Part shown: one piece after another, positions 37,487 through 45,165 of the stretch | Numbering within the stretch: the first letter of the stretch is position 1 | Layout of the letters: each line of letters opens with the position of its first letter | Assembly: GCA_965279035.1 (NCBI GenBank) | Contig: OZ257142.1 | Location: forward strand, 4,032,001-4,096,000 | Direction: 5' to 3' | DNA from: Bacteroidia bacterium | Lineage (GTDB): Bacteria; Bacteroidota; Bacteroidia; M30B66 | Length of the DNA stretch: 64,000 nucleotides | The notes under the pieces: generated by a model | Databases searched by the model: none | The model's input: only the letters and a program-made list of their open reading frames with translations | What the model was told of the DNA's origin: nothing | Program-made: the position numbers and the translations under genes

Positions 37487-39226
37487 TTAAAATAAGCTTG
37501 TTATCCCGAAATGCACTTTAGCCGATTTGAATGCAATGGGATTATCGAATTGTTTACCTAATGCATAGGAAATGGAGAAAATACCCGCTTTGGTTTCGAA
37601 ACTCATGCCTGCCCCAAATCCAAATGGACGATCTACAACATCGCGGTTAACGGCTTTGTTCTCATAATAAGCACCATTCCAAAATGCAAAAAGAAAGGAA
37701 TTTTCTTCCAACAAATATCGGTATTCCAAATTCAAAATCGAATACGCCGAAGCAAAAATGGATTCCTCGTTAAAGCCACGTAAAGTATTATTTCCACCAA
37801 TACGCGAAAGCTCATTTTCGAATACATTGGCTCCATTAATCACACTCGCCAAAACTCCAATATTAAAAGTGGAACGATTACGAATGGGTATGAAAAAGTC
37901 AGCATCAACATGTCCATTGTATTGCACCGAACGCAATGTGAGCTTGTCGTATAATTCCTGTTTAAGCGCTGGATTTTTTTGAATTGTACGTGTTCCTGTC
38001 CCAAATCTTGCAATCAATCGATACCCTTTTCGTGGATTTAAGCGATAATCGAGTCGAGTGAGATTGACTTCAATTCCATACAAATTGGCGTGAATATCGG
38101 CATAATCGGGAAGCGTTAAAATATTCTCAAGTCCACGTGTGGAAAGCAAATTAGAACTTCTGTTTTCAAAAAAAGCTTTGAGGTAATCGGTTCCTTTCAT
38201 GAGGTATTGCAAACCGATATTTTGCTGAACATTGATAAAACTGGTATCGCGCTTATACAAACCAAAAGCACCTTCAACACCAATGCGTGTATTGAATAAA
38301 AAAGGCCAGCCGAGTTTGATATTCAAGCTTTGGGTTCCTTGTTGCAATCGCCGCCATTCGGCATCAATCAATTCGCCACGTCCCAAACTATTTTTGAGTT
38401 TGAGGTTGACTTCACCGGTAAGTAATAGCTTTCCATTATTAGAAGTATTAGGCAAAATACCTACAATACCATTGAAACTACTAGCTTTTCGATCGTTCAA
38501 ATACAAACGAACAAGTGTTGAATTCTCTAACAAAAACACATCGGCTGGACGCGTTTCAGTTAAAAAGGGCAGTTCTTTTAAACGTATGGATATCTGCCTC
38601 ATGACAGCCTCATTATAAACATCGCCCGGACGAATTCCGATGTAGTTATAGAGATAACGTGATGTTATTCGAGCGGTTCCACGGATGGTCACACTATCAA
38701 TATGAAATAGTTCACCCTTTTCGACGCGCAAACCAGCTTCGATCATGGGTGAGTTGGTTTTCAAACTATCAAACCTCAAGCTGACAAATGGATACCCATT
38801 ATTTTCGTAATAGGTGATGATTTTTCGCATCATCCGTCGCGTTTGATTGTAACGAAAGGGACGATTTCGATATATCTTTTCTCTGAATCCACTGTTGCTT
38901 AACGCTCCTTCATCCACGTTGATCGAATGCAAGCGCGACCATCGATAGGCTTCTCCTCGATAAATAAAAACATGCAAGGAATCTGTCTTTGCAATTGAAT
39001 CGATTTTATGTTCAATACGATCTACACCGGCAGTTAAAAACCCTTCTTCTTGCAATGATAGAACGAGATCATTCACTGCTTTTTGTCTTAATTCTGGTGA
39101 AGAAAAGGAGGATTTTGGACTTGGATGAAATGGTTTATTTTCATGCAGATCGGTTGCGATTAGGCGATACGATTGCGCATAAGTACTTAATGAAATAAAG
39201 GATAAAAGAAAAATCCGGATGAGCAT
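37487..39226 (-). CDS. Omp85/BamA-TamA family outer-membrane protein with POTRA domain
   Basis: YENNGYPF POTRA signature, RIGG..TLRGF (L6 loop), C-terminal aromatic strand. Confidence 0.85.
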   Translation of the reverse strand: MLIRIFLLSFISLSTYAQSYRLIATDLHENKPFHPSPKSSFSSPELRQKAVNDLVLSLQEEGFLTAGVDRIEHKIDSIAKTDSLHVFIYRGEAYRWSRLHSINVDEGALSNSGFREKIYRNRPFRYNQTRRMMRKIITYYENNGYPFVSLRFDSLKTNSPMIEAGLRVEKGELFHIDSVTIRGTARITSRYLYNYIGIRPGDVYNEAVMRQISIRLKELPFLTETRPADVFLLENSTLVRLYLNDRKASSFNGIVGILPNTSNNGKLLLTGEVNLKLKNSLGRGELIDAEWRRLQQGTQSLNIKLGWPFLFNTRIGVEGAFGLYKRDTSFINVQQNIGLQYLMKGTDYLKAFFENRSSNLLSTRGLENILTLPDYADIHANLYGIEVNLTRLDYRLNPRKGYRLIARFGTGTRTIQKNPALKQELYDKLTLRSVQYNGHVDADFFIPIRNRSTFNIGVLASVINGANVFENELSRIGGNNTLRGFNEESIFASAYSILNLEYRYLLEENSFLFAFWNGAYYENKAVNRDVVDRPFGFGAGMSFETKAGIFSISYALGKQFDNPIAFKSAKVHFGITSLF

Positions 39227-39227
39227 G

Positions 39228-39914
39228 TTAAGGAAGGCTCCAATCGATTGGTGTTAGTCCTTGATCGAGCAAAATCTTATTGGTATAACTAAAATGACGA
39301 CAACCAAAAAATCCATTATACGCTGATAAAGGCGATGGATGAGCGGCTTTTAGTACAAAATGTTTGTTTGTATCGATGAGTTTTTCTTTGAGTTGAGCTG
39401 GCCTTCCCCATAAAAGAAACACAAGACCTTTTCGTTTTTCAGAAAGCAAACGAATGACTTGATCGGTAAATTGTTCCCAGCCTTTTCCTTGATGAGAAGC
39501 GGGAGATGCAGCACGAACAGTTAATGTAGCATTGAGAAGCAAAACTCCTTGATTTGCCCAACGTGTTAAATCACCTTCGCGACCAACTTCTGACTGCAAA
39601 TCCTGCCGAATTTCTTTAAAAATATTGACCAATGAAGGTGGTATTTTTACTTCAGGACTAACAGAGAAGCACATTCCATTGGCCTGTCCGGGACCATGAT
39701 ACGGATCTTGCCCCATGATCACTACTTTCACTTTATCAAATGGGATATGATTAAAAGCGGCAAATATTTGTCCTCCTGGAGGATAGATGGTCGCTTCAGC
39801 ACGTTCTTTAATAAGAAACTCTTTCAATAAAGCGAAATAAGGCTTTTGAAATTCGTCGCCAAGTGCTTCTTTCCAGCTTTGCTCAATTTTCGGCTGGATA
39901 ACCAAACTTTCCAT
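39228..39914 (-). CDS. ung: Uracil-DNA glycosylase
   Basis: [29 protein letters not shown]; TATGTTTG box at 39930-39937 supports start 39914. Confidence 0.96.
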
Positions 39915-40042
39915 GTGATTTCTTTCCTGCAAACATACGGATTCGAATATCCTCAACGTTTGCTGTTCATAACCTTTCGATTTTCATCCCGTATCGTTGA
40001 GAAATATCCTTTTCGGGATAAAATTGACCTTTTAAAAAAAAT

Positions 40043-40174
40043 ATGCTGTCTACAAAAAAAATATTCGTCCTTGGTTCTGCATTGATTCTATTGATGTCCA
40101 TAGGCTGTAAGTCGCATGTTGACTGTCCTGCATACAGTAAATCGAACAACCAACACAAAAAGTCGGGCGCTTAA
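40043..40174 (+). CDS. Small lipoprotein A (43 aa) with HVDCPAY motif, not in ORF track
   Basis: Hand translation MLSTKKIFVLGSALILLMSIGCKSHVDCPAYSKSNNQHKKSGA*: basic N-terminus, hydrophobic core, lipobox SIGC; paralog immediately downstream. Confidence 0.75.
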   Translation: MLSTKKIFVLGSALILLMSIGCKSHVDCPAYSKSNNQHKKSGA

Positions 40175-40210
40175 AGTTAATTGCTTATTTTTGCGCTGAA
40201 TAAAAGAGAG

Positions 40211-40348
40211 ATGAACCGACCGAAAGTTGTTTTAATTGCCGTCCTTTTTCTAGGAACTACCTTGATGATGTCTTGCAGATCAAGAAAACATGTTGACTGT
40301 CCTGCATACGGCAAAAACACAGAGCAATCTGCAACAAAACATTCATAG
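40211..40348 (+). CDS. Small lipoprotein B (45 aa) with HVDCPAY motif, not in ORF track
   Basis: Hand translation MNRPKVVLIAVLFLGTTLMMSCRSRKHVDCPAYGKNTEQSATKHS*: lipobox MMSC; TATTTTTG box at 40186-40193; stop is 4 nt before the ytxJ ATG. Confidence 0.78.
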   Translation: MNRPKVVLIAVLFLGTTLMMSCRSRKHVDCPAYGKNTEQSATKHS

Positions 40349-40352
40349 TAAA

Positions 40353-40694
40353 ATGCTAAACTGGATCCCTCTGGCAACAGAGCGACAGTTAGACGAACTT
40401 GTTCAACTTTCCTTTACCGAAGGAGTTGATGCTGTTGCCATTTTCAAACATAGTACGCGCTGTTCAATTAGTTCAATGGTCAAAAATCGTTTAGAGCGCG
40501 TTTGGAATGTAGGTACTAAAAATATTCCTGTTTATTACCTTGATCTTATTGCGTTCCGTTCATTGAGCAACGAAATAGCAAACCGTTTCGGCATTGAACA
40601 CGAATCCCCTCAATTGCTTTTCATTCAAAAAGGCAAAGTTGTTTCTCACGCTTCCCATTCTGCGATTGAGGCAGAAATGATTGAAACGCTTTAG
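40353..40694 (+). CDS. ytxJ: Bacillithiol system redox-active protein YtxJ (monothiol thioredoxin fold)
   Basis: IFKHSTRCSIS, YYLDL..R.LSN.IA, HESPQ; start ATG 40353 (ORF track 40290). Confidence 0.9.
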   Translation: MLNWIPLATERQLDELVQLSFTEGVDAVAIFKHSTRCSISSMVKNRLERVWNVGTKNIPVYYLDLIAFRSLSNEIANRFGIEHESPQLLFIQKGKVVSHASHSAIEAEMIETL

Positions 40695-41101
40695 ATTCCA
40701 AAGTCAAATGTGATTTCCTGTTCAATATCAGGATGAAGACTTAAAGCAACAGGACAAGTTCTGGCTGCTCGTTCTAATAATGTGCGTTGATGCTCATTTA
40801 ATGTAGAATCAAATCCATAAATCCGAATGGCGATTTTGGAAATTTTACGTGGTGATGCCGCCATGAATTTATCAACATCTGCTTCAATTCCTGAAAATGG
40901 AATCTGATGCGTTCTAGCCGCAATGCCCATAATAGTAAACATACAAGCTGACAAAGCCGCACATACCGAATCGGTTGGTGAGAAAGATTCACCTTTACCT
41001 TGATTGTCGAGTGGAGCATCTGTAATCAAGACTGATCCGGAAGAAACGTGTGTTTGTTCTGTTCGAAGATCTCCCAAATAGCGTGAATGAATAGTCGGCA
41101 T
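40691..41101 (-). CDS. OsmC family protein
   Basis: YLGDLRT, TDAP.DN.GKGE.FSPTD, LSAC, AARTCPVALSL. Confidence 0.9.
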   Translation of the reverse strand: MPTIHSRYLGDLRTEQTHVSSGSVLITDAPLDNQGKGESFSPTDSVCAALSACMFTIMGIAARTHQIPFSGIEADVDKFMAASPRKISKIAIRIYGFDSTLNEHQRTLLERAARTCPVALSLHPDIEQEITFDFGI

Positions 41102-41143
41102 GGTATATCGATGGTTAAATTGAATCTGTTGTATCTTTGCTTA

Positions 41144-41944
41144 ATGCTCCAAACATACCGTTTTTCACTTTGCATACCCGCGTTCTTTTCAAGAATGTGG
41201 CTTGTTTGGATGCTTGTGATTCTTGGAATTAACTCTAAAATAACTGCTCAAGTTGTTGCTTCTGTTGATGAAACTGGGATTCTTTATTCCAAAGTTCGGC
41301 ATTCAGGCTTAACACTTCACAGTAATGGTTTAGGAATAAATTACCGAAGAGGTAAACACTTAACAGGATACAGTTTTCTTCTTGCTGATTTTTCATTAGT
41401 CACCATGAAACACCCGAAAGAAACCAAACAGGTGAATCAGTTTAGCGATAATAATGGTGGTTTTATTTATGGAAAGCTAAATTCATTGCTTATCCTAAGA
41501 ACTGGAATTGGAAAACAGAAATCGATTAATCAACGTGGTGATAGAGGAGGTGTCGATGTTTCCTATGGTATATATGGTGGGATTTCATGGGGAATTGCCA
41601 AACCTATTTACCTCAGTGTTTTTAAGTTTGATGATCAAAATGGAGTAACCGAATCAATCGAACGATACAATCCCGACAAGCATTTTCCAGATAATATTTC
41701 GGGCAGAGCATCCTACTTTAAAGGTTTTGGAGAATCTAAAATTCATCCCGGACTTTACGGAAGTTTTTTACTCAATTTTGAGTTCGGTCGTGAACAAGAT
41801 CGACTTAGAATGGTTGAAACAGGGTTTACAGTGGATGCCTTTGCTAAGCCGATTCCTATCATGGCTTTCAATAAAAACAGCAATTTCTTTTTCACCTTTT
41901 TTATCCGGTTGCTAATCGGAAAACAATGGAATTACGATGAGTGA
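41144..41944 (+). CDS. Exported hypothetical protein, probable outer-membrane beta-barrel
   Basis: Signal-like N-terminus, alternating beta strands, KHPKE and FIYGKLN motifs; overlaps lipA start; TATCTTTG box at 41132-41139. Confidence 0.65.
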
Positions 41945-44136: not shown

Positions 44137-45165
44137 ATGACAACACTTACTTCTGTAGAAAAAATAGATGCTGCCAACATTGGATTAATGTTGATATCAT
44201 GCGTTCTCGCTTTTATTTTACCCTTTGAATTATTCCTTTTCTCCTATGCCGTGCTTGGTCCACTTCATTATCTGACTGAGATTGGTTGGCTACATAAAAA
44301 GGGATATTACACTACGGGGAAATACGATTATTTATTTCTAGGAATCCTAAGTGTATTAATTACTCTTGGCTTTCTCGGTTTAAATGATGCCTTAAGTGAC
44401 TTAGCTACTGGCTTGGTTTATCTCGCATTTTTAATGGCTTTTGTCATGGTGCTCATTAAAGACAATACTTTGAAGATCATATGCGGTGTACTCATTTTAT
44501 TTTCTACAATCCTATTTAATAAATACAATTTTTTTGAACTCTTTTTTGCGGTCTACCTTCCTACAATCATTCATGTTTATTGCTTCACAGGACTTTTTAT
44601 TCTGTATGGTGCTTTAAAGAATAAAAGTAAAATTGGATTTTTATCCTTGCTTGTATTTGTCGGTTGTACTCTCAGTTTCTTTTTATTTCCACTTGATTAT
44701 AATTCACTTGTTCCGATCAATAAAATTCAAGAAAGTATTGTTGGATTTGTTGAATTAAACCGTCAACTGATAAATTTCTTTGGATTTGATGATTTACAAG
44801 AATTTAGCAGACAGACATTGGGAGAGAATTCGCAAGTAATTTTCTTTTCACATTCAGGCTACATTGTGATGCGTTTTATTGCATTTGCTTATACTTACCA
44901 CTACTTAAATTGGTTTTCCAAAACATCAGTCATTCAATGGCATAAAGTCCCTAAAAAGACACTCTATATTGTATTAGCTGTTTGGGCAATTTCTGTATCG
45001 CTCTATGCATACAATTATATGGTTGGCTTGAAATGGTTATTCTTGATAAGCTTTTTACATGTCTTGCTTGAATTCCCACTAAACTTTCGAAGTTTTATTG
45101 GAATAGGTCAAGAACTGAAAGCATTGGTATCAGGAAAACAATTAACCAAAGTCCCCCAAAAATAA
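44137..45165 (+). CDS. Polytopic membrane protein of unknown function with intramembrane His motifs
   Basis: About 9-10 TM segments; GPLHYLTE, PTIIHVY, AYTYHYLNWFSKT, FLHVLLEFPLN. Confidence 0.75.
   Translation: MTTLTSVEKIDAANIGLMLISCVLAFILPFELFLFSYAVLGPLHYLTEIGWLHKKGYYTTGKYDYLFLGILSVLITLGFLGLNDALSDLATGLVYLAFLMAFVMVLIKDNTLKIICGVLILFSTILFNKYNFFELFFAVYLPTIIHVYCFTGLFILYGALKNKSKIGFLSLLVFVGCTLSFFLFPLDYNSLVPINKIQESIVGFVELNRQLINFFGFDDLQEFSRQTLGENSQVIFFSHSGYIVMRFIAFAYTYHYLNWFSKTSVIQWHKVPKKTLYIVLAVWAISVSLYAYNYMVGLKWLFLISFLHVLLEFPLNFRSFIGIGQELKALVSGKQLTKVPQK

What the first reader, a model, noticed from the sequence alone, without database searches (positions are those of the whole stretch)
40043..41101. 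Two unannotated tandem micro-lipoproteins with an identical HVDCPAY motif, next to thiol-redox genes ytxJ and osmC
Seen in sequence: two ORFs below the ORF-track cutoff (40043-40174, 43 aa; 40211-40348, 45 aa). Each has a basic N-terminus, hydrophobic stretch and lipobox Cys, followed by an identical 21-nt block CATGTTGACTGTCCTGCATAC encoding HVDCPAY. Signal peptides and tails have otherwise diverged. ORF B has its own TAnnTTTG box and stops 4 nt before the ytxJ ATG; osmC converges on ytxJ. Established: YtxJ is a monothiol thioredoxin-fold protein of bacillithiol systems, and OsmC-family proteins include Cys-based peroxidases. Inference: after lipidation the mature products are ~22-24-aa membrane-tethered peptides with one free Cys and an adjacent His/Asp. 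They could be an envelope thiol/metal-binding or disulfide-crosslinking peptide family, or lipopeptide precursors. This is my best candidate for an undescribed system in the window.
Basis: partly seen in the sequence, partly recalled or inferred. Interest (0 to 1): 0.78.

Follow-up and report, generated by a model that had tools for sequence, protein, structure and literature searches.

The report
Conserved CPAY micro-lipoprotein family of Bacteroidota
The two tiny genes are real members of a large, unnamed Bacteroidota family that should yield lipid-anchored peptides of about 22 residues with one invariant free cysteine; their role in the cell envelope is unknown, and their position beside ytxJ is incidental.

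Summary
ORF A (40043-40174) and ORF B (40211-40348) exist, share an identical 21-mer, and lie between ung and ytxJ/osmC.

They are genuine protein-coding genes. The same small ORFs occur in 24 of 24 genomes of the relatives' order and in 192 of 400 genomes of their class. The family has 1095 representative clusters at 50% identity and no Pfam or NCBIfam model.

The invariant Cys-Pro-Ala-Tyr codons vary freely at third positions, and pN/pS is 0.15-0.54. This excludes a DNA-level repeat. The perfect 21-mer is peculiar to this genome: the 22 other tandem pairs differ at 3-10 of 21 bases.

The products look like signal-peptidase-II lipoproteins. The mature peptide has a median of 22 residues, a conserved head (C-x5-7-C-P-A-Y-[GS]-K) and a tail of fixed length.

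The ytxJ link is weak: ytxJ follows in 9 of 59 loci. ung (41 of 59) and the osmC-like gene (34 of 59) are the steadier neighbours, and all three lack export signals.

Function is untested. My best guess is a docking lipopeptide that uses its single free thiol on an envelope partner. A heme or metal ligand is the main rival.

The parts
40019..40026 (+). Candidate -7 promoter box for ORF A (TAAAATTG, one mismatch to TAnnTTTG), 16 nt before the ATG
   Evidence: Read. The position matches the family-wide pile-up of TAnnTTTG boxes 10-29 nt before the start codon. Inferred; the consensus is recalled.
40043..40174 (+). ORF A, 43-aa micro-lipoprotein precursor. Signal peptide is residues 1-21, the lipobox Cys22 codon is 40106-40108, and the mature peptide is 22 aa (CKSHVDCPAYSK... 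type, 6 residues from the lipid Cys to the CP Cys).
   Evidence: Orthologues are present in L001-L004. pN/pS is 0.30-0.48.
40115..40135 (+). First copy of the 21-mer, encoding HVDCPAY of ORF A
40186..40193 (+). TAnnTTTG-type -7 box (TATTTTTG) for ORF B, inside a stretch nearly invariant in four genomes
   Evidence: alignment A5.
40211..40348 (+). ORF B, 45-aa micro-lipoprotein precursor. Signal peptide is residues 1-21, the lipobox Cys22 codon is 40274-40276, and the mature peptide is 24 aa (CRSRKHVDCPAYGK... type, spacing 8).
   Evidence: pN/pS is 0.15-0.54. One 180-nt contig of an RNA library lies over 40217-40369; this is only a weak hint.
40289..40309 (+). Second copy of the 21-mer, encoding HVDCPAY of ORF B
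39228..39914 (-). ung (uracil-DNA glycosylase), the divergent neighbour. It is the most constant neighbour of the family but is not proposed as a functional partner.
   Evidence: NF003589 E 3.6e-99. Divergent within 700 nt in 41 of 59 loci.
40353..40694 (+). ytxJ/brxC (monothiol bacilliredoxin family), 4 nt downstream of ORF B. A facultative neighbour.
   Evidence: Directly downstream in 9 of 59 loci.
40691..41101 (-). OsmC-like gene, convergent. A frequent neighbour of the family.
   Evidence: PF02566. Convergent within 800 nt in 34 of 59 loci.

Best explanation
ORF A and ORF B are two paralogous members of a large, unnamed Bacteroidota family of micro-lipoproteins.

Shown by computation:
- The genes are under protein-level purifying selection.
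- They are widespread and almost always free-standing.
- Most family members carry their own promoter-like box.

Inferred from sequence rules and established knowledge of the Lgt/LspA pathway: the roughly 21-residue signal peptide is removed by signal peptidase II. This leaves a peptide of 22-24 residues whose N-terminal Cys carries the lipid anchor, on the periplasmic side of a membrane.

The working part is the head next to the anchor: lipid-Cys, 5-7 mostly basic or polar residues, then the invariant Cys-Pro-Ala-Tyr-[Gly/Ser]-Lys. A poorly conserved hydrophilic tail of fixed length (12-13 residues) follows and ends in [K/R]-x-[S/A/V].

Most likely mechanism (inference, about 0.3-0.35 on its own): the peptide is disordered alone. 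It docks through the conserved head onto an envelope protein or complex, as the small lipoprotein LptM does on LptD in enterobacteria. Its single free thiol then forms a mixed disulfide or a buried contact.

It acts independently of the cytoplasmic neighbours ytxJ, osmC and ung. Their adjacency reflects an old, conserved gene order. The identical 21-mer in this genome is best read as local gene conversion between the two paralogues, or as chance.
For: Real genes under protein-level selection:
- Both ORFs are present and open, in the same order, in 4 of 4 related loci.
- The profile hits 24 of 24 genomes of that order. By my reading, 14 have a tandem pair, 9 have a single copy and 1 is doubtful.
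- It hits 192 of 400 genomes of the class. All 78 loci I inspected held the motif in an open frame.
- 871 predicted proteins and 1095 representatives at 50% identity match. All of those listed are short.
- Third-position codon use at the invariant residues is free: TGT 70 / TGC 50; CCT 58 / CCG 29 / CCA 23 / CCC 9; GCT 55 / GCA 37 / GCC 19 / GCG 8; TAC 68 / TAT 51.
- pN/pS is 0.15-0.54 in 12 orthologue pairs.

Lipoprotein:
- 102 of 120 members pass a strict lipobox rule. The rule is recalled from PROSITE PS51257.
- 11 of 109 members give sub-threshold hits to the Pfam lipid-attachment model LPAM_1.
- LspA was found in 4 of 5 relatives' genomes.
- AlphaFold2 gives a helix for residues 4-27 and an unstructured mature part with pLDDT 47-59.

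Own transcription unit:
- A TAnnTTTG box lies within 120 nt upstream in 83 of 118 genes, against 8.9% of shuffles.
- The A-B spacer holding ORF B's box is nearly invariant in four genomes.

Head-and-ruler anatomy:
- 116 of 120 mature peptides have exactly two Cys.
- The tail after CPAY is 12 residues in 65 of 120 and 13 in 25 of 120.
- K/R is at -3 in 67 of 120, and a small last residue occurs in 102 of 120.
- The head also occurs once at the N-terminus of a 214-aa lipoprotein (L107), as a module would.

Independence from ytxJ: (9 of 59).

LptM precedent: passages of the preprint 10.64898/2026.10.03.756453.
Against: - There is no evidence of translation or lipidation. The only RNA trace is one low-depth contig from a metatranscriptome, which may contain DNA.
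- No partner is identified.
- Neighbours outside the conserved block are heterogeneous.
- The nearby outer-membrane barrel gene is only loosely co-distributed. It is present in 175 of 192 genomes with the small gene and in 158 of 208 without. I made this cross-tabulation by hand, and phylogeny is not corrected.
- In the passages I read of the Bacteroidota LPS-translocon preprint, the LptM-equivalent site is filled by the N-terminus of LptP, and no micro-lipopeptide subunit is mentioned.
- The family was not detected in 208 of 400 genomes of the class, so it is not a universal core part. Incomplete genomes and the loose first-look filter make 192 a lower bound.
- Strict invariance of Cys-Pro fits a ligand role as well as a docking role.
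Confidence: 0.45

Rival explanations
1. Heme- or metal-binding lipopeptide. The invariant Cys-Pro is a CP-type heme-regulatory motif. The thiolate, helped by His at -3 and Tyr at +3, transiently ligates heme (or Cu/Fe) at the membrane surface for buffering, hand-over or sensing.
For: - Cys-Pro is invariant (120 of 120). Tyr within +4 occurs in 119 of 120, and His within -4 together with Tyr in 82 of 120.
- CP motifs use the Cys as axial heme ligand with Pro stabilising it (passage of PMC11442138).
- Nearby His/Tyr and hydrophobic residues favour binding (passages of PMC6356037).
- A bacterial lipoprotein with a Cys-Pro heme motif is on record: LipL41 (abstract and passages of PMC3861479).
- A variant subfamily has C-D-C-P-[ST]-[WF] (L092, L120, L122), which adds a second thiol two residues away.
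Against: - The same peptide studies say that a CP dipeptide alone does not bind heme, that a negative net charge inhibits binding, and that a positive one favours it.
- In this family the 9-mer net charge is +1 in only 22 of 120 members, 0 in 63, and negative in 35. ORF A's 9-mer is -1 and ORF B's is 0.
- His at -3 is missing in about a third of members.
- Invariance of Ala-Tyr-Gly/Ser-Lys and the fixed tail length are not needed for a simple ligand.
- A lone periplasmic thiol may be oxidised.
- There is no consistent linkage to heme or copper genes: one COX1 neighbour (L051) and one hemE neighbour (L109) among the loci scanned.
Confidence: 0.2
2. One reading: an envelope thiol/disulfide peptide that works with the neighbouring thiol-redox genes ytxJ and osmC as one system.
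For: - In the window ORF B ends 4 nt before ytxJ, and osmC converges on ytxJ.
- All three products have a conserved reactive-looking Cys.
- The OsmC-like gene is a frequent neighbour, in 34 of 59 loci.
Against: - ytxJ follows in only 9 of 59 loci and 2 of 16.
- osmC is convergent, so it is not co-transcribed.
- YtxJ and the OsmC-like protein show no signal peptide by inspection, so they sit across the inner membrane from the mature peptide.
- The block also holds ung, lipA and gap in the same order. That points to conserved gene order rather than a functional unit.
Confidence: 0.05
3. Membrane-active pair of the entericidin or colicin-lysis-protein kind: small lipopeptides that perturb the envelope, with A and B acting as toxin and antidote.
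For: - Same size class and tandem arrangement in this window.
- 6 of 109 members give sub-threshold hits to Pfam Lysis_col, best E 0.02.
- The mature peptides are basic, with a median net charge of +2.
Against: - Most genomes carry a single copy. Only 6 of 59 class-level loci have two, and 9 of 24 genomes in the order have one.
- The gene sits in a stable housekeeping neighbourhood and looks vertically inherited.
- No Pfam match reaches a cut-off. The weak hits cover the signal/lipobox part.
- The mature peptide has no amphipathic helix in the model.
Confidence: 0.07
4. Precursors of a modified lipopeptide (a RiPP-lipoprotein hybrid like the DAG-RiPPs), with the Cys-Pro-Ala motif as the site of enzymatic modification.
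For: - DAG-RiPP precursors of other Bacteroidota are small peptides with an SPII signal and a conserved CPxCGxG (mostly CPACGMG) motif (PMC13056109, abstract and passages).
- The family motif C-P-A-Y-G-K resembles the first three and the fifth positions of that motif.
Against: - The second Cys that the enzyme cross-links is a Tyr here in 119 of 120 members.
- The motif lies 12-13 residues from the C-terminus, not at it.
- The MNIO family PF05114 was found in 0 of 5 relatives' genomes (these are incomplete MAGs).
- No modifying enzyme lies among the 23 ORFs scanned within 24.7-58.8 kb of the window or among the neighbours in other genomes.
Confidence: 0.05
5. Not genes: a regulatory direct repeat or chance ORFs in the ung-ytxJ spacer.
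For: - The two 21-mers are identical at the DNA level in this window.
- No translation data exist.
Against: - In 22 other tandem pairs the same 21 positions differ at 3-10 bases while the peptide is kept.
- Frames are open in all inspected relatives.
- pN/pS is below 0.55 in all 12 pairs.
- No Rfam family matches 39800-40800 at E up to 1.
Confidence: 0.02

Closest known systems
LptM (YifL), the small lipoprotein subunit of the enterobacterial LptDE translocon
   Same: - A very small lipoprotein whose conserved part is the short peptide next to the lipidated Cys.
- The rest is poorly conserved and disordered.
- It acts by docking that lipidated N-terminus into an outer-membrane protein (passages of 10.64898/2026.10.03.756453; search listing of the LptM papers).
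   Different: - No sequence relation. Neither window ORF hits any Pfam model at E up to 1, and the LptM model is not among the 25 families most often hit by the 109 members.
- The motif, the phylum and the invariant free Cys all differ.
- In Bacteroidota the LptM site of LptD is reported to be filled by LptP.
DAG-RiPPs (DybA-type RiPP-lipoprotein hybrids of Bacteroidota; PMC13056109)
   Same: - Small Bacteroidota peptides with a signal-peptidase-II signal.
- A conserved Cys-Pro-Ala-containing motif.
- The product is a membrane-bound lipopeptide of unknown function.
   Different: - Their motif is CPxCGxG at the C-terminus with two Cys, and it is modified by an adjacent MNIO enzyme.
- Here there is one Cys, the motif is near the N-terminus of the mature peptide, and no MNIO was found.
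CP-type heme-regulatory motifs (for example Irr, and the lipoprotein LipL41)
   Same: A surface-exposed Cys-Pro with nearby His/Tyr in a flexible stretch.
   Different: - Net charge around the Cys is mostly 0 or negative.
- The conserved stretch is longer than a heme-regulatory motif needs.
- The location is periplasmic.
- Heme binding is untested.
Entericidin A/B and colicin lysis proteins (tandem or plasmid-borne micro-lipoproteins of Proteobacteria)
   Same: Precursors of 40-50 aa, mature lipopeptides of 20-35 aa, and tandem paralogues in the case of entericidin (recalled knowledge).
   Different: - No Pfam match above cut-off.
- Those families have no conserved free Cys.
- The family here is mostly single-copy in a housekeeping block.

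Membership tests
Bacterial SPII (Lgt/LspA) lipoproteins | N-terminal signal with basic n-region, hydrophobic h-region and a lipobox ending in Cys at position 15-35 | tested here: met
   ORF A and ORF B both fit, and 102 of 120 family members pass the strict pattern. The pattern is recalled from PROSITE PS51257. The 18 failures are mostly a Cys or Tyr in the h-region or a wrongly chosen start. SignalP was not available.
Bacterial SPII (Lgt/LspA) lipoproteins | The organism has signal peptidase II | tested here: met
   PF01252 is over its cut-off in 4 of 5 relatives' genomes. No whole genome is held for the window itself.
Bacterial SPII (Lgt/LspA) lipoproteins | The product is actually lipidated and cleaved | not testable with these tools
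   This needs globomycin sensitivity, lipid labelling or mass spectrometry.
LptM / YifL (Pfam LptM_cons) | Match to the family's conserved lipidated N-terminal motif | tested here: not met
   ORF A and ORF B give no such hit at E up to 1. The model is not among the 25 families listed for the 109 members (34 families matched in all, and 9 were not shown).
LptM / YifL (Pfam LptM_cons) | Subunit of the LptDE translocon | not testable with these tools
   The passages read of 10.64898/2026.10.03.756453 assign the equivalent site in two Bacteroidota to LptP. That preprint's supplements were not seen.
DAG-RiPP precursors (DybA-like) | CPxCGxG motif at the C-terminal end | tested here: not met
   The family motif is C-P-A-Y-[GS]-K, followed by 12-13 more residues in 90 of 120 members.
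DAG-RiPP precursors (DybA-like) | Adjacent ChrH/DybH-type MNIO enzyme (PF05114) | tested here: not met
   Found in 0 of 5 relatives' genomes. None lies among the 23 window ORFs scanned or among the neighbours scanned.
CP-type heme-regulatory motif | Cys-Pro dipeptide on an exposed, flexible stretch | tested here: met
   120 of 120 members have it. The mature part is unstructured in the model.
CP-type heme-regulatory motif | Favourable context: positive net charge of the 9-mer and extra His/Tyr | tested here: inconclusive
   His plus Tyr occurs in 82 of 120, but net charge is +1 in only 22 of 120 and 0 or lower in 98.
CP-type heme-regulatory motif | Measured heme binding | not testable with these tools
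   This needs a UV/Vis titration of the synthetic peptide.
Entericidin / colicin lysis micro-lipoproteins | Match to the family models | tested here: not met
   Lysis_col gives sub-threshold hits in 6 of 109 members, best E 0.02. Entericidin is not listed. The window ORFs give none.
   9 of 59 loci and 2 of 16.

The most novel reading that the evidence does not exclude
The CPAY lipopeptide is a hitherto unseen small subunit or cofactor-carrier of a core Bacteroidota envelope machine. It would be tethered by its lipid and joined to its partner through its single cysteine (a disulfide or a shared metal/heme site). Its two ends, held 12-13 residues apart, would act as a molecular ruler.

If so, a 22-residue peptide encoded beside ung in about half of the sampled genomes would be a missing part in structures and genetic screens of the Bacteroidota outer membrane.
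Probability: 0.25. Interest if true: 0.8.

Novelty: new variant of a known kind. Interest (0 to 1): 0.6.

Why it matters
Small proteins are routinely missed in annotation and in genetic screens. Here a family with more than a thousand sequence clusters has no curated model or name and no paper in the searches I ran (searches found nothing on it). It has an invariant six-residue head and a fixed length.

The Bacteroidota envelope machines are only now being solved and keep yielding new subunits. A conserved lipopeptide with one free thiol is a concrete, cheap target for that field. A synthetic peptide, one deletion and two point mutants in any cultured carrier would tell whether it is a subunit, a ligand carrier or dispensable.

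The finding also corrects the tempting reading that the neighbouring thiol-redox genes explain it.

Tried and rejected
1. Complex prediction of the mature-plus-six-residue peptide (ORF B residues 16-45, alignment A3) with the neighbouring outer-membrane barrel (alignment A4). The verdict was 'no answer', score 0.00, and the controls were not run. I do not count this for or against binding.

2. Co-distribution with the barrel gene. The barrel is in 333 of 400 genomes. By my hand comparison, it is in 175 of 192 genomes with the small gene and in 158 of 208 without. This is a weak association, uncorrected for phylogeny or completeness, and I rejected it as evidence of partnership.

3. Co-distribution with heme-copper oxidase (PF00115). 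It is in 381 of 400 genomes, so it is uninformative. Only 4 carriers of the small gene lack it (G057, G131, G236, G310).

4. RNA evidence. One run on record as RNA held 6% of the sampled words. One 180-nt contig of depth 2.7, with 6 other letters, lies over 40217-40369. The tool warns that DNA can be present in such a library, so I do not count this as expression.

5. A single-sequence protein search found only one relative. The family became visible only with a profile.

6. A search for longer, fused forms gave 14 proteins of 87-116 aa. The comparably long ORFs I could inspect in fetched loci (L119, L120, L123, L124) carried the family match at their C-terminal end behind an upstream extension, so I read these as the short gene with an upstream-called start. 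Only one true fusion was seen (L107, 214 aa), and its extra domain has no Pfam match.

7. Three long proteins listed in the same 90% clusters (P0126, P0139, P0142) share nothing visible with the family. I set them aside as clustering artefacts.

8. The ESM Atlas returned only unnamed clusters, at a score of 0.90.

9. Earlier findings of the scan: nothing by sequence or place bears on this.

10. Own-genome search: no genome is held for the window.

11. An LptM-like role specifically in LptD is made less likely.
Full report
**What is in the window.** Searches confirm two small + strand ORFs between ung (39228-39914, - strand) and ytxJ (40353-40694, + strand).
- ORF A is 40043-40174 (43 aa). ORF B is 40211-40348 (45 aa).
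- Each starts with a basic n-region and a hydrophobic stretch, and has a Cys at residue 22 preceded by small residues.
No further match appears at up to three mismatches, and none is expected in shuffles. It encodes HVDCPAY in frame in both ORFs.
- ORF B stops 4 nt before the ytxJ ATG.
- An OsmC-like gene (40691-41101, - strand) converges on ytxJ.
- The neighbour identities rest: uracil-DNA glycosylase E 3.6e-99; TIGR04019 YtxJ E 6.5e-35 and PF11009 BrxC; PF02566 OsmC E 8.5e-13.
- Neither small ORF matches any NCBIfam or Pfam model near a cut-off.

**Are they genes?** A single-sequence search found one relative at 80% identity.
- A scan of one genome per species with the pattern [KS]HVDCPAY found 9 stretches. 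Five were confirmed, in 4 loci.
- All four loci carry both ORFs, open, in the same order, inside the same gene order: Omp85-like gene, ung, A, B, ytxJ, osmC-like, a 250-285-aa unknown, lipA, gap.
- A profile of these ten sequences (A2) hit 24 of 24 genomes of that order at E up to 0.01. One of them, G011, matched only weakly and with stops.
- Reading the loci, I count 14 genomes with a tandem pair, 9 with one copy (one of these lies at a contig end) and 1 doubtful.
- In the class to which these genomes belong, 192 of 400 sampled genomes had a match. The tool does not name the class. Record titles and source names say Flavobacteriales, Chitinophaga, Bacteroidia or Bacteroidota.
- I inspected the best 18 loci. 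I also inspected the next 60 in E-value order, leaving out the unpublished G116 and loci already held. All 78 carry the motif in an open frame. Matches weaker than about E 1e-5 were not inspected.
- The tally includes two unpublished genomes, G116 and G199, both positive. None of their sequence was used.
- A profile of 109 sequences (A3) found 871 predicted proteins at E up to 0.001 among 2070 candidates. Every name given by a source among the 120 listed was 'hypothetical protein'.
- The same profile found 1095 representatives of 50%-identity clusters, 85 of them at E up to 1e-10. All 150 listed are 38-97 aa.

**Protein-level, not DNA-level, conservation.** Across 120 distinct family members the invariant C, P, A and Y use all their synonymous codons:
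- Cys: TGT 70, TGC 50.
- Pro: CCT 58, CCG 29, CCA 23, CCC 9.
- Ala: GCT 55, GCA 37, GCC 19, GCG 8.
- Tyr: TAC 68, TAT 51.

In 22 other genomes with tandem copies, the 21 positions corresponding to the window's repeat differ at 3-10 bases between the two copies. Only the window has 0 differences. The perfect repeat is therefore a local peculiarity, most simply a short gene-conversion tract or chance, and not the conserved feature. Nei-Gojobori pN/pS for 12 orthologue pairs among the window and L001-L003 is 0.15-0.54, with pS of 0.10-0.81. No Rfam family matches 39800-40800 at E up to 1.

**Anatomy of the family.**
- Precursors have a median of 43 aa (range 36-57). Mature peptides have a median of 22 aa (range 16-29).
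- 102 of 120 pass a strict lipobox pattern that I recalled from PROSITE PS51257. The rest fail on a Cys or Tyr in the h-region or on my choice of start.
- The common form is ...[LF]-[ST]-S-C-[KR]-[ST]-H-E-[RK]-C-P-A-Y-[GS]-K.
- The distance from the lipobox Cys to the second Cys is 6 residues in 92 members, 7 in 22 and 8 in 4.
- The window's order has its own signature with Asp before the Cys: A type C-K-S-H-[VI]-D-C and B type C-R-x-(R)-K-[KH]-V-D-C.
- 116 of 120 mature peptides contain exactly two Cys, so one remains after lipidation.
- The tail after CPAY is 12 residues in 65 members and 13 in 25. It is hydrophilic and poorly conserved.
- The tail ends with K/R at -3 (67 of 120) and a small last residue S/A/V/G (102 of 120). 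Median net charge is +2.
- AlphaFold2 on A3 gives a helix for residues 4-27 (the signal peptide) and no structure for the mature part, with pLDDT 47-59.
- LspA is present in 4 of 5 relatives' genomes.
- Eleven of 109 members give sub-threshold hits to the Pfam lipid-attachment model. No member reaches any cut-off.

**Expression signals.**
In 42 genes it ends 10-29 nt before the start codon.
- In the window, ORF B has TATTTTTG at 40186-40193. ORF A has TAAAATTG (one mismatch) at 40019-40026.
- The spacer between A and B is almost invariant among the window and L001-L003, while third codon positions inside the ORFs vary.
- One freshwater metatranscriptome run holds a 180-nt contig over 40217-40369, at depth 2.7 with 6 other letters. 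The tool warns that DNA may be present in such libraries, so I do not count it.

**Context.** In the 59 short-form loci of the class-level sample:
- ung is divergent within 700 nt in 41.
- The OsmC-like gene is convergent within 800 nt in 34.
- The unknown 250-285-aa gene and lipA follow in 34 each.
- ytxJ lies directly downstream in only 9.
- In 10 loci none of the block genes lies within the fetched 4 kb.

In the 16 distinct best loci scanned with Pfam, ung is adjacent in 12, OsmC in 7 and BrxC/YtxJ in 2. The 10 loci outside the block have mixed neighbours, with several outer-membrane proteins: OmpA-family proteins in L098 and L109 (also L057), small beta-barrels in L069 and L076 (also L053), and TonB-dependent receptors and PorP.

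The block mixes DNA repair, lipoate synthesis and glycolysis, so I read it as conserved gene order, not an operon. By inspection, YtxJ and the OsmC-like protein have no signal peptide, whereas the mature peptide is extracytoplasmic. The proposed thiol-redox partnership with ytxJ/osmC is therefore weakly founded.

**Looking for a partner or a known kind.**
- The unknown neighbour (41195-41941 from its likely start) folds with mean pLDDT 88 into an all-beta barrel. Its best Foldseek matches are the OmpA transmembrane domain, Ail, NspA and OmpX. It is a small outer-membrane barrel without a Pfam model.
- It is more widespread than the micro-lipoprotein (333 of 400). The hand-made cross-tabulation gives 175 of 192 against 158 of 208, which is only loosely associated.
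- A complex prediction with it gave no verdict (listed under tried and rejected).
- Fused forms are rare. The 'longer' search gave only 14 proteins of 87-116 aa.
- One locus (L107) encodes a 214-aa lipoprotein that begins with the same head. This suggests the head is a self-contained N-terminal module. Its extra domain has no Pfam match.
- Variants with C-D-C-P-[ST]-[WF]-[GS]-K exist (L092, L120, L122).
- A short-tailed upstream paralogue ending ...CPAY[AS]-[IL]-E-x-[IK]-V(-K) recurs in several genomes.

**Comparison with what is known.**
- *LptM.* In enterobacteria this is a very small lipoprotein whose lipidated N-terminal peptide docks at the LptD lateral gate. In two Bacteroidota the same site is reported to be filled by the N-terminus of a larger lipoprotein, LptP, and up to eight extra subunits are described, none of them a micro-lipopeptide. 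I saw only passages of preprint 10.64898/2026.10.03.756453, not its supplements. The family works like LptM only by analogy of anatomy. It is not a member, and LptD is an unlikely host.
- *DAG-RiPPs.* These are small SPII-signal peptides of Bacteroidota with a C-terminal CPxCGxG motif, cross-linked by an adjacent MNIO enzyme (PMC13056109, abstract and passages). The family lacks the second Cys and the C-terminal position. PF05114 was found in 0 of 5 relatives' genomes, and no modifying enzyme lies among the 23 window ORFs scanned.
- *CP-type heme-regulatory motifs.* These need Cys-Pro in a favourable context. Cys-Pro, Tyr and mostly His are present, but the 9-mer net charge is positive in only 22 of 120 members. 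This remains the main rival.
- *Entericidins and colicin lysis proteins.* They share the size class only.
- *Print search.* Searches for the motif and for small lipoproteins or small ORFs of Bacteroidota found no description of this family.

**Verdict.**
They belong to a large undescribed family.
- The functional reading through ytxJ/osmC is not supported.
- The mechanism is open. I commit to a docking lipopeptide that uses its single free thiol on an envelope partner (about 0.3-0.35).
- A heme or metal thiolate ligand comes next (about 0.2).

Noticed in passing
window 41087-41944 (likely start 41195), + strand: An unannotated-looking gene of about 250 aa with no Pfam or NCBIfam hit. It folds (pLDDT 88) as a small outer-membrane beta-barrel, with best matches OmpA-TM, Ail, NspA and OmpX. 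It is conserved just upstream of lipA and was found in 333 of 400 genomes of the class.
   Followed up: partly
L107:3464-4105 (- strand): A 214-aa lipoprotein that begins with the family's head (C-K-T-E-M-D-C-P-A-Y-S-K) and continues into a roughly 190-aa domain without any Pfam match. It is the only true fusion seen.
   Followed up: partly
L092, L120, L122 (family hits): A variant subfamily with an extra Cys and Trp/Phe in place of Tyr: C-D-C-P-[ST]-[WF]-[GS]-K.
   Followed up: no
L047, L065, L066, L067, L085, L091, L105 (upstream copy of tandem pairs): A second kind of paralogue sits directly upstream of the canonical gene. It has a very short tail after CPAY ending in hydrophobic residues (...CPAY[AS]-[IL]-E-x-[IK]-V(-K)). 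This duplication is independent of the window's A/B pair.
   Followed up: no
L118:1986-2432: One copy of the gene reads on into about 100 residues of T-P-G-A-S-rich repeats (149-aa frame), while a normal 42-aa copy exists elsewhere in the same genome (L121). This may be a lost stop.
   Followed up: no
window 37487-39226, - strand: A 579-aa Omp85-type protein with a POTRA domain and an SPase-I-like signal, directly downstream of ung. It is kept in that position in 17 of 59 loci within the fetched flank.
   Followed up: no
window 39925-39940 and alignment A5 columns 20-46: A stretch of the ung-side spacer (CTTTCCTGCAAACATACGGATTCG) is nearly invariant in four genomes. On the - strand it contains TATGTTTG, a TAnnTTTG box for ung.
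   Followed up: no
window 40280-40306 versus run X1 record 1: The first 27 letters of the single RNA-library contig fit 40280-40306, while its remainder fits 40217-40369. This may be an assembly loop through the repeated motif region.
   Followed up: no
window 44137-45162, + strand: A 342-aa ORF downstream of gap with no Pfam hit at E up to 1e-5. It is conserved in the same place in L003 and L004.
   Followed up: no
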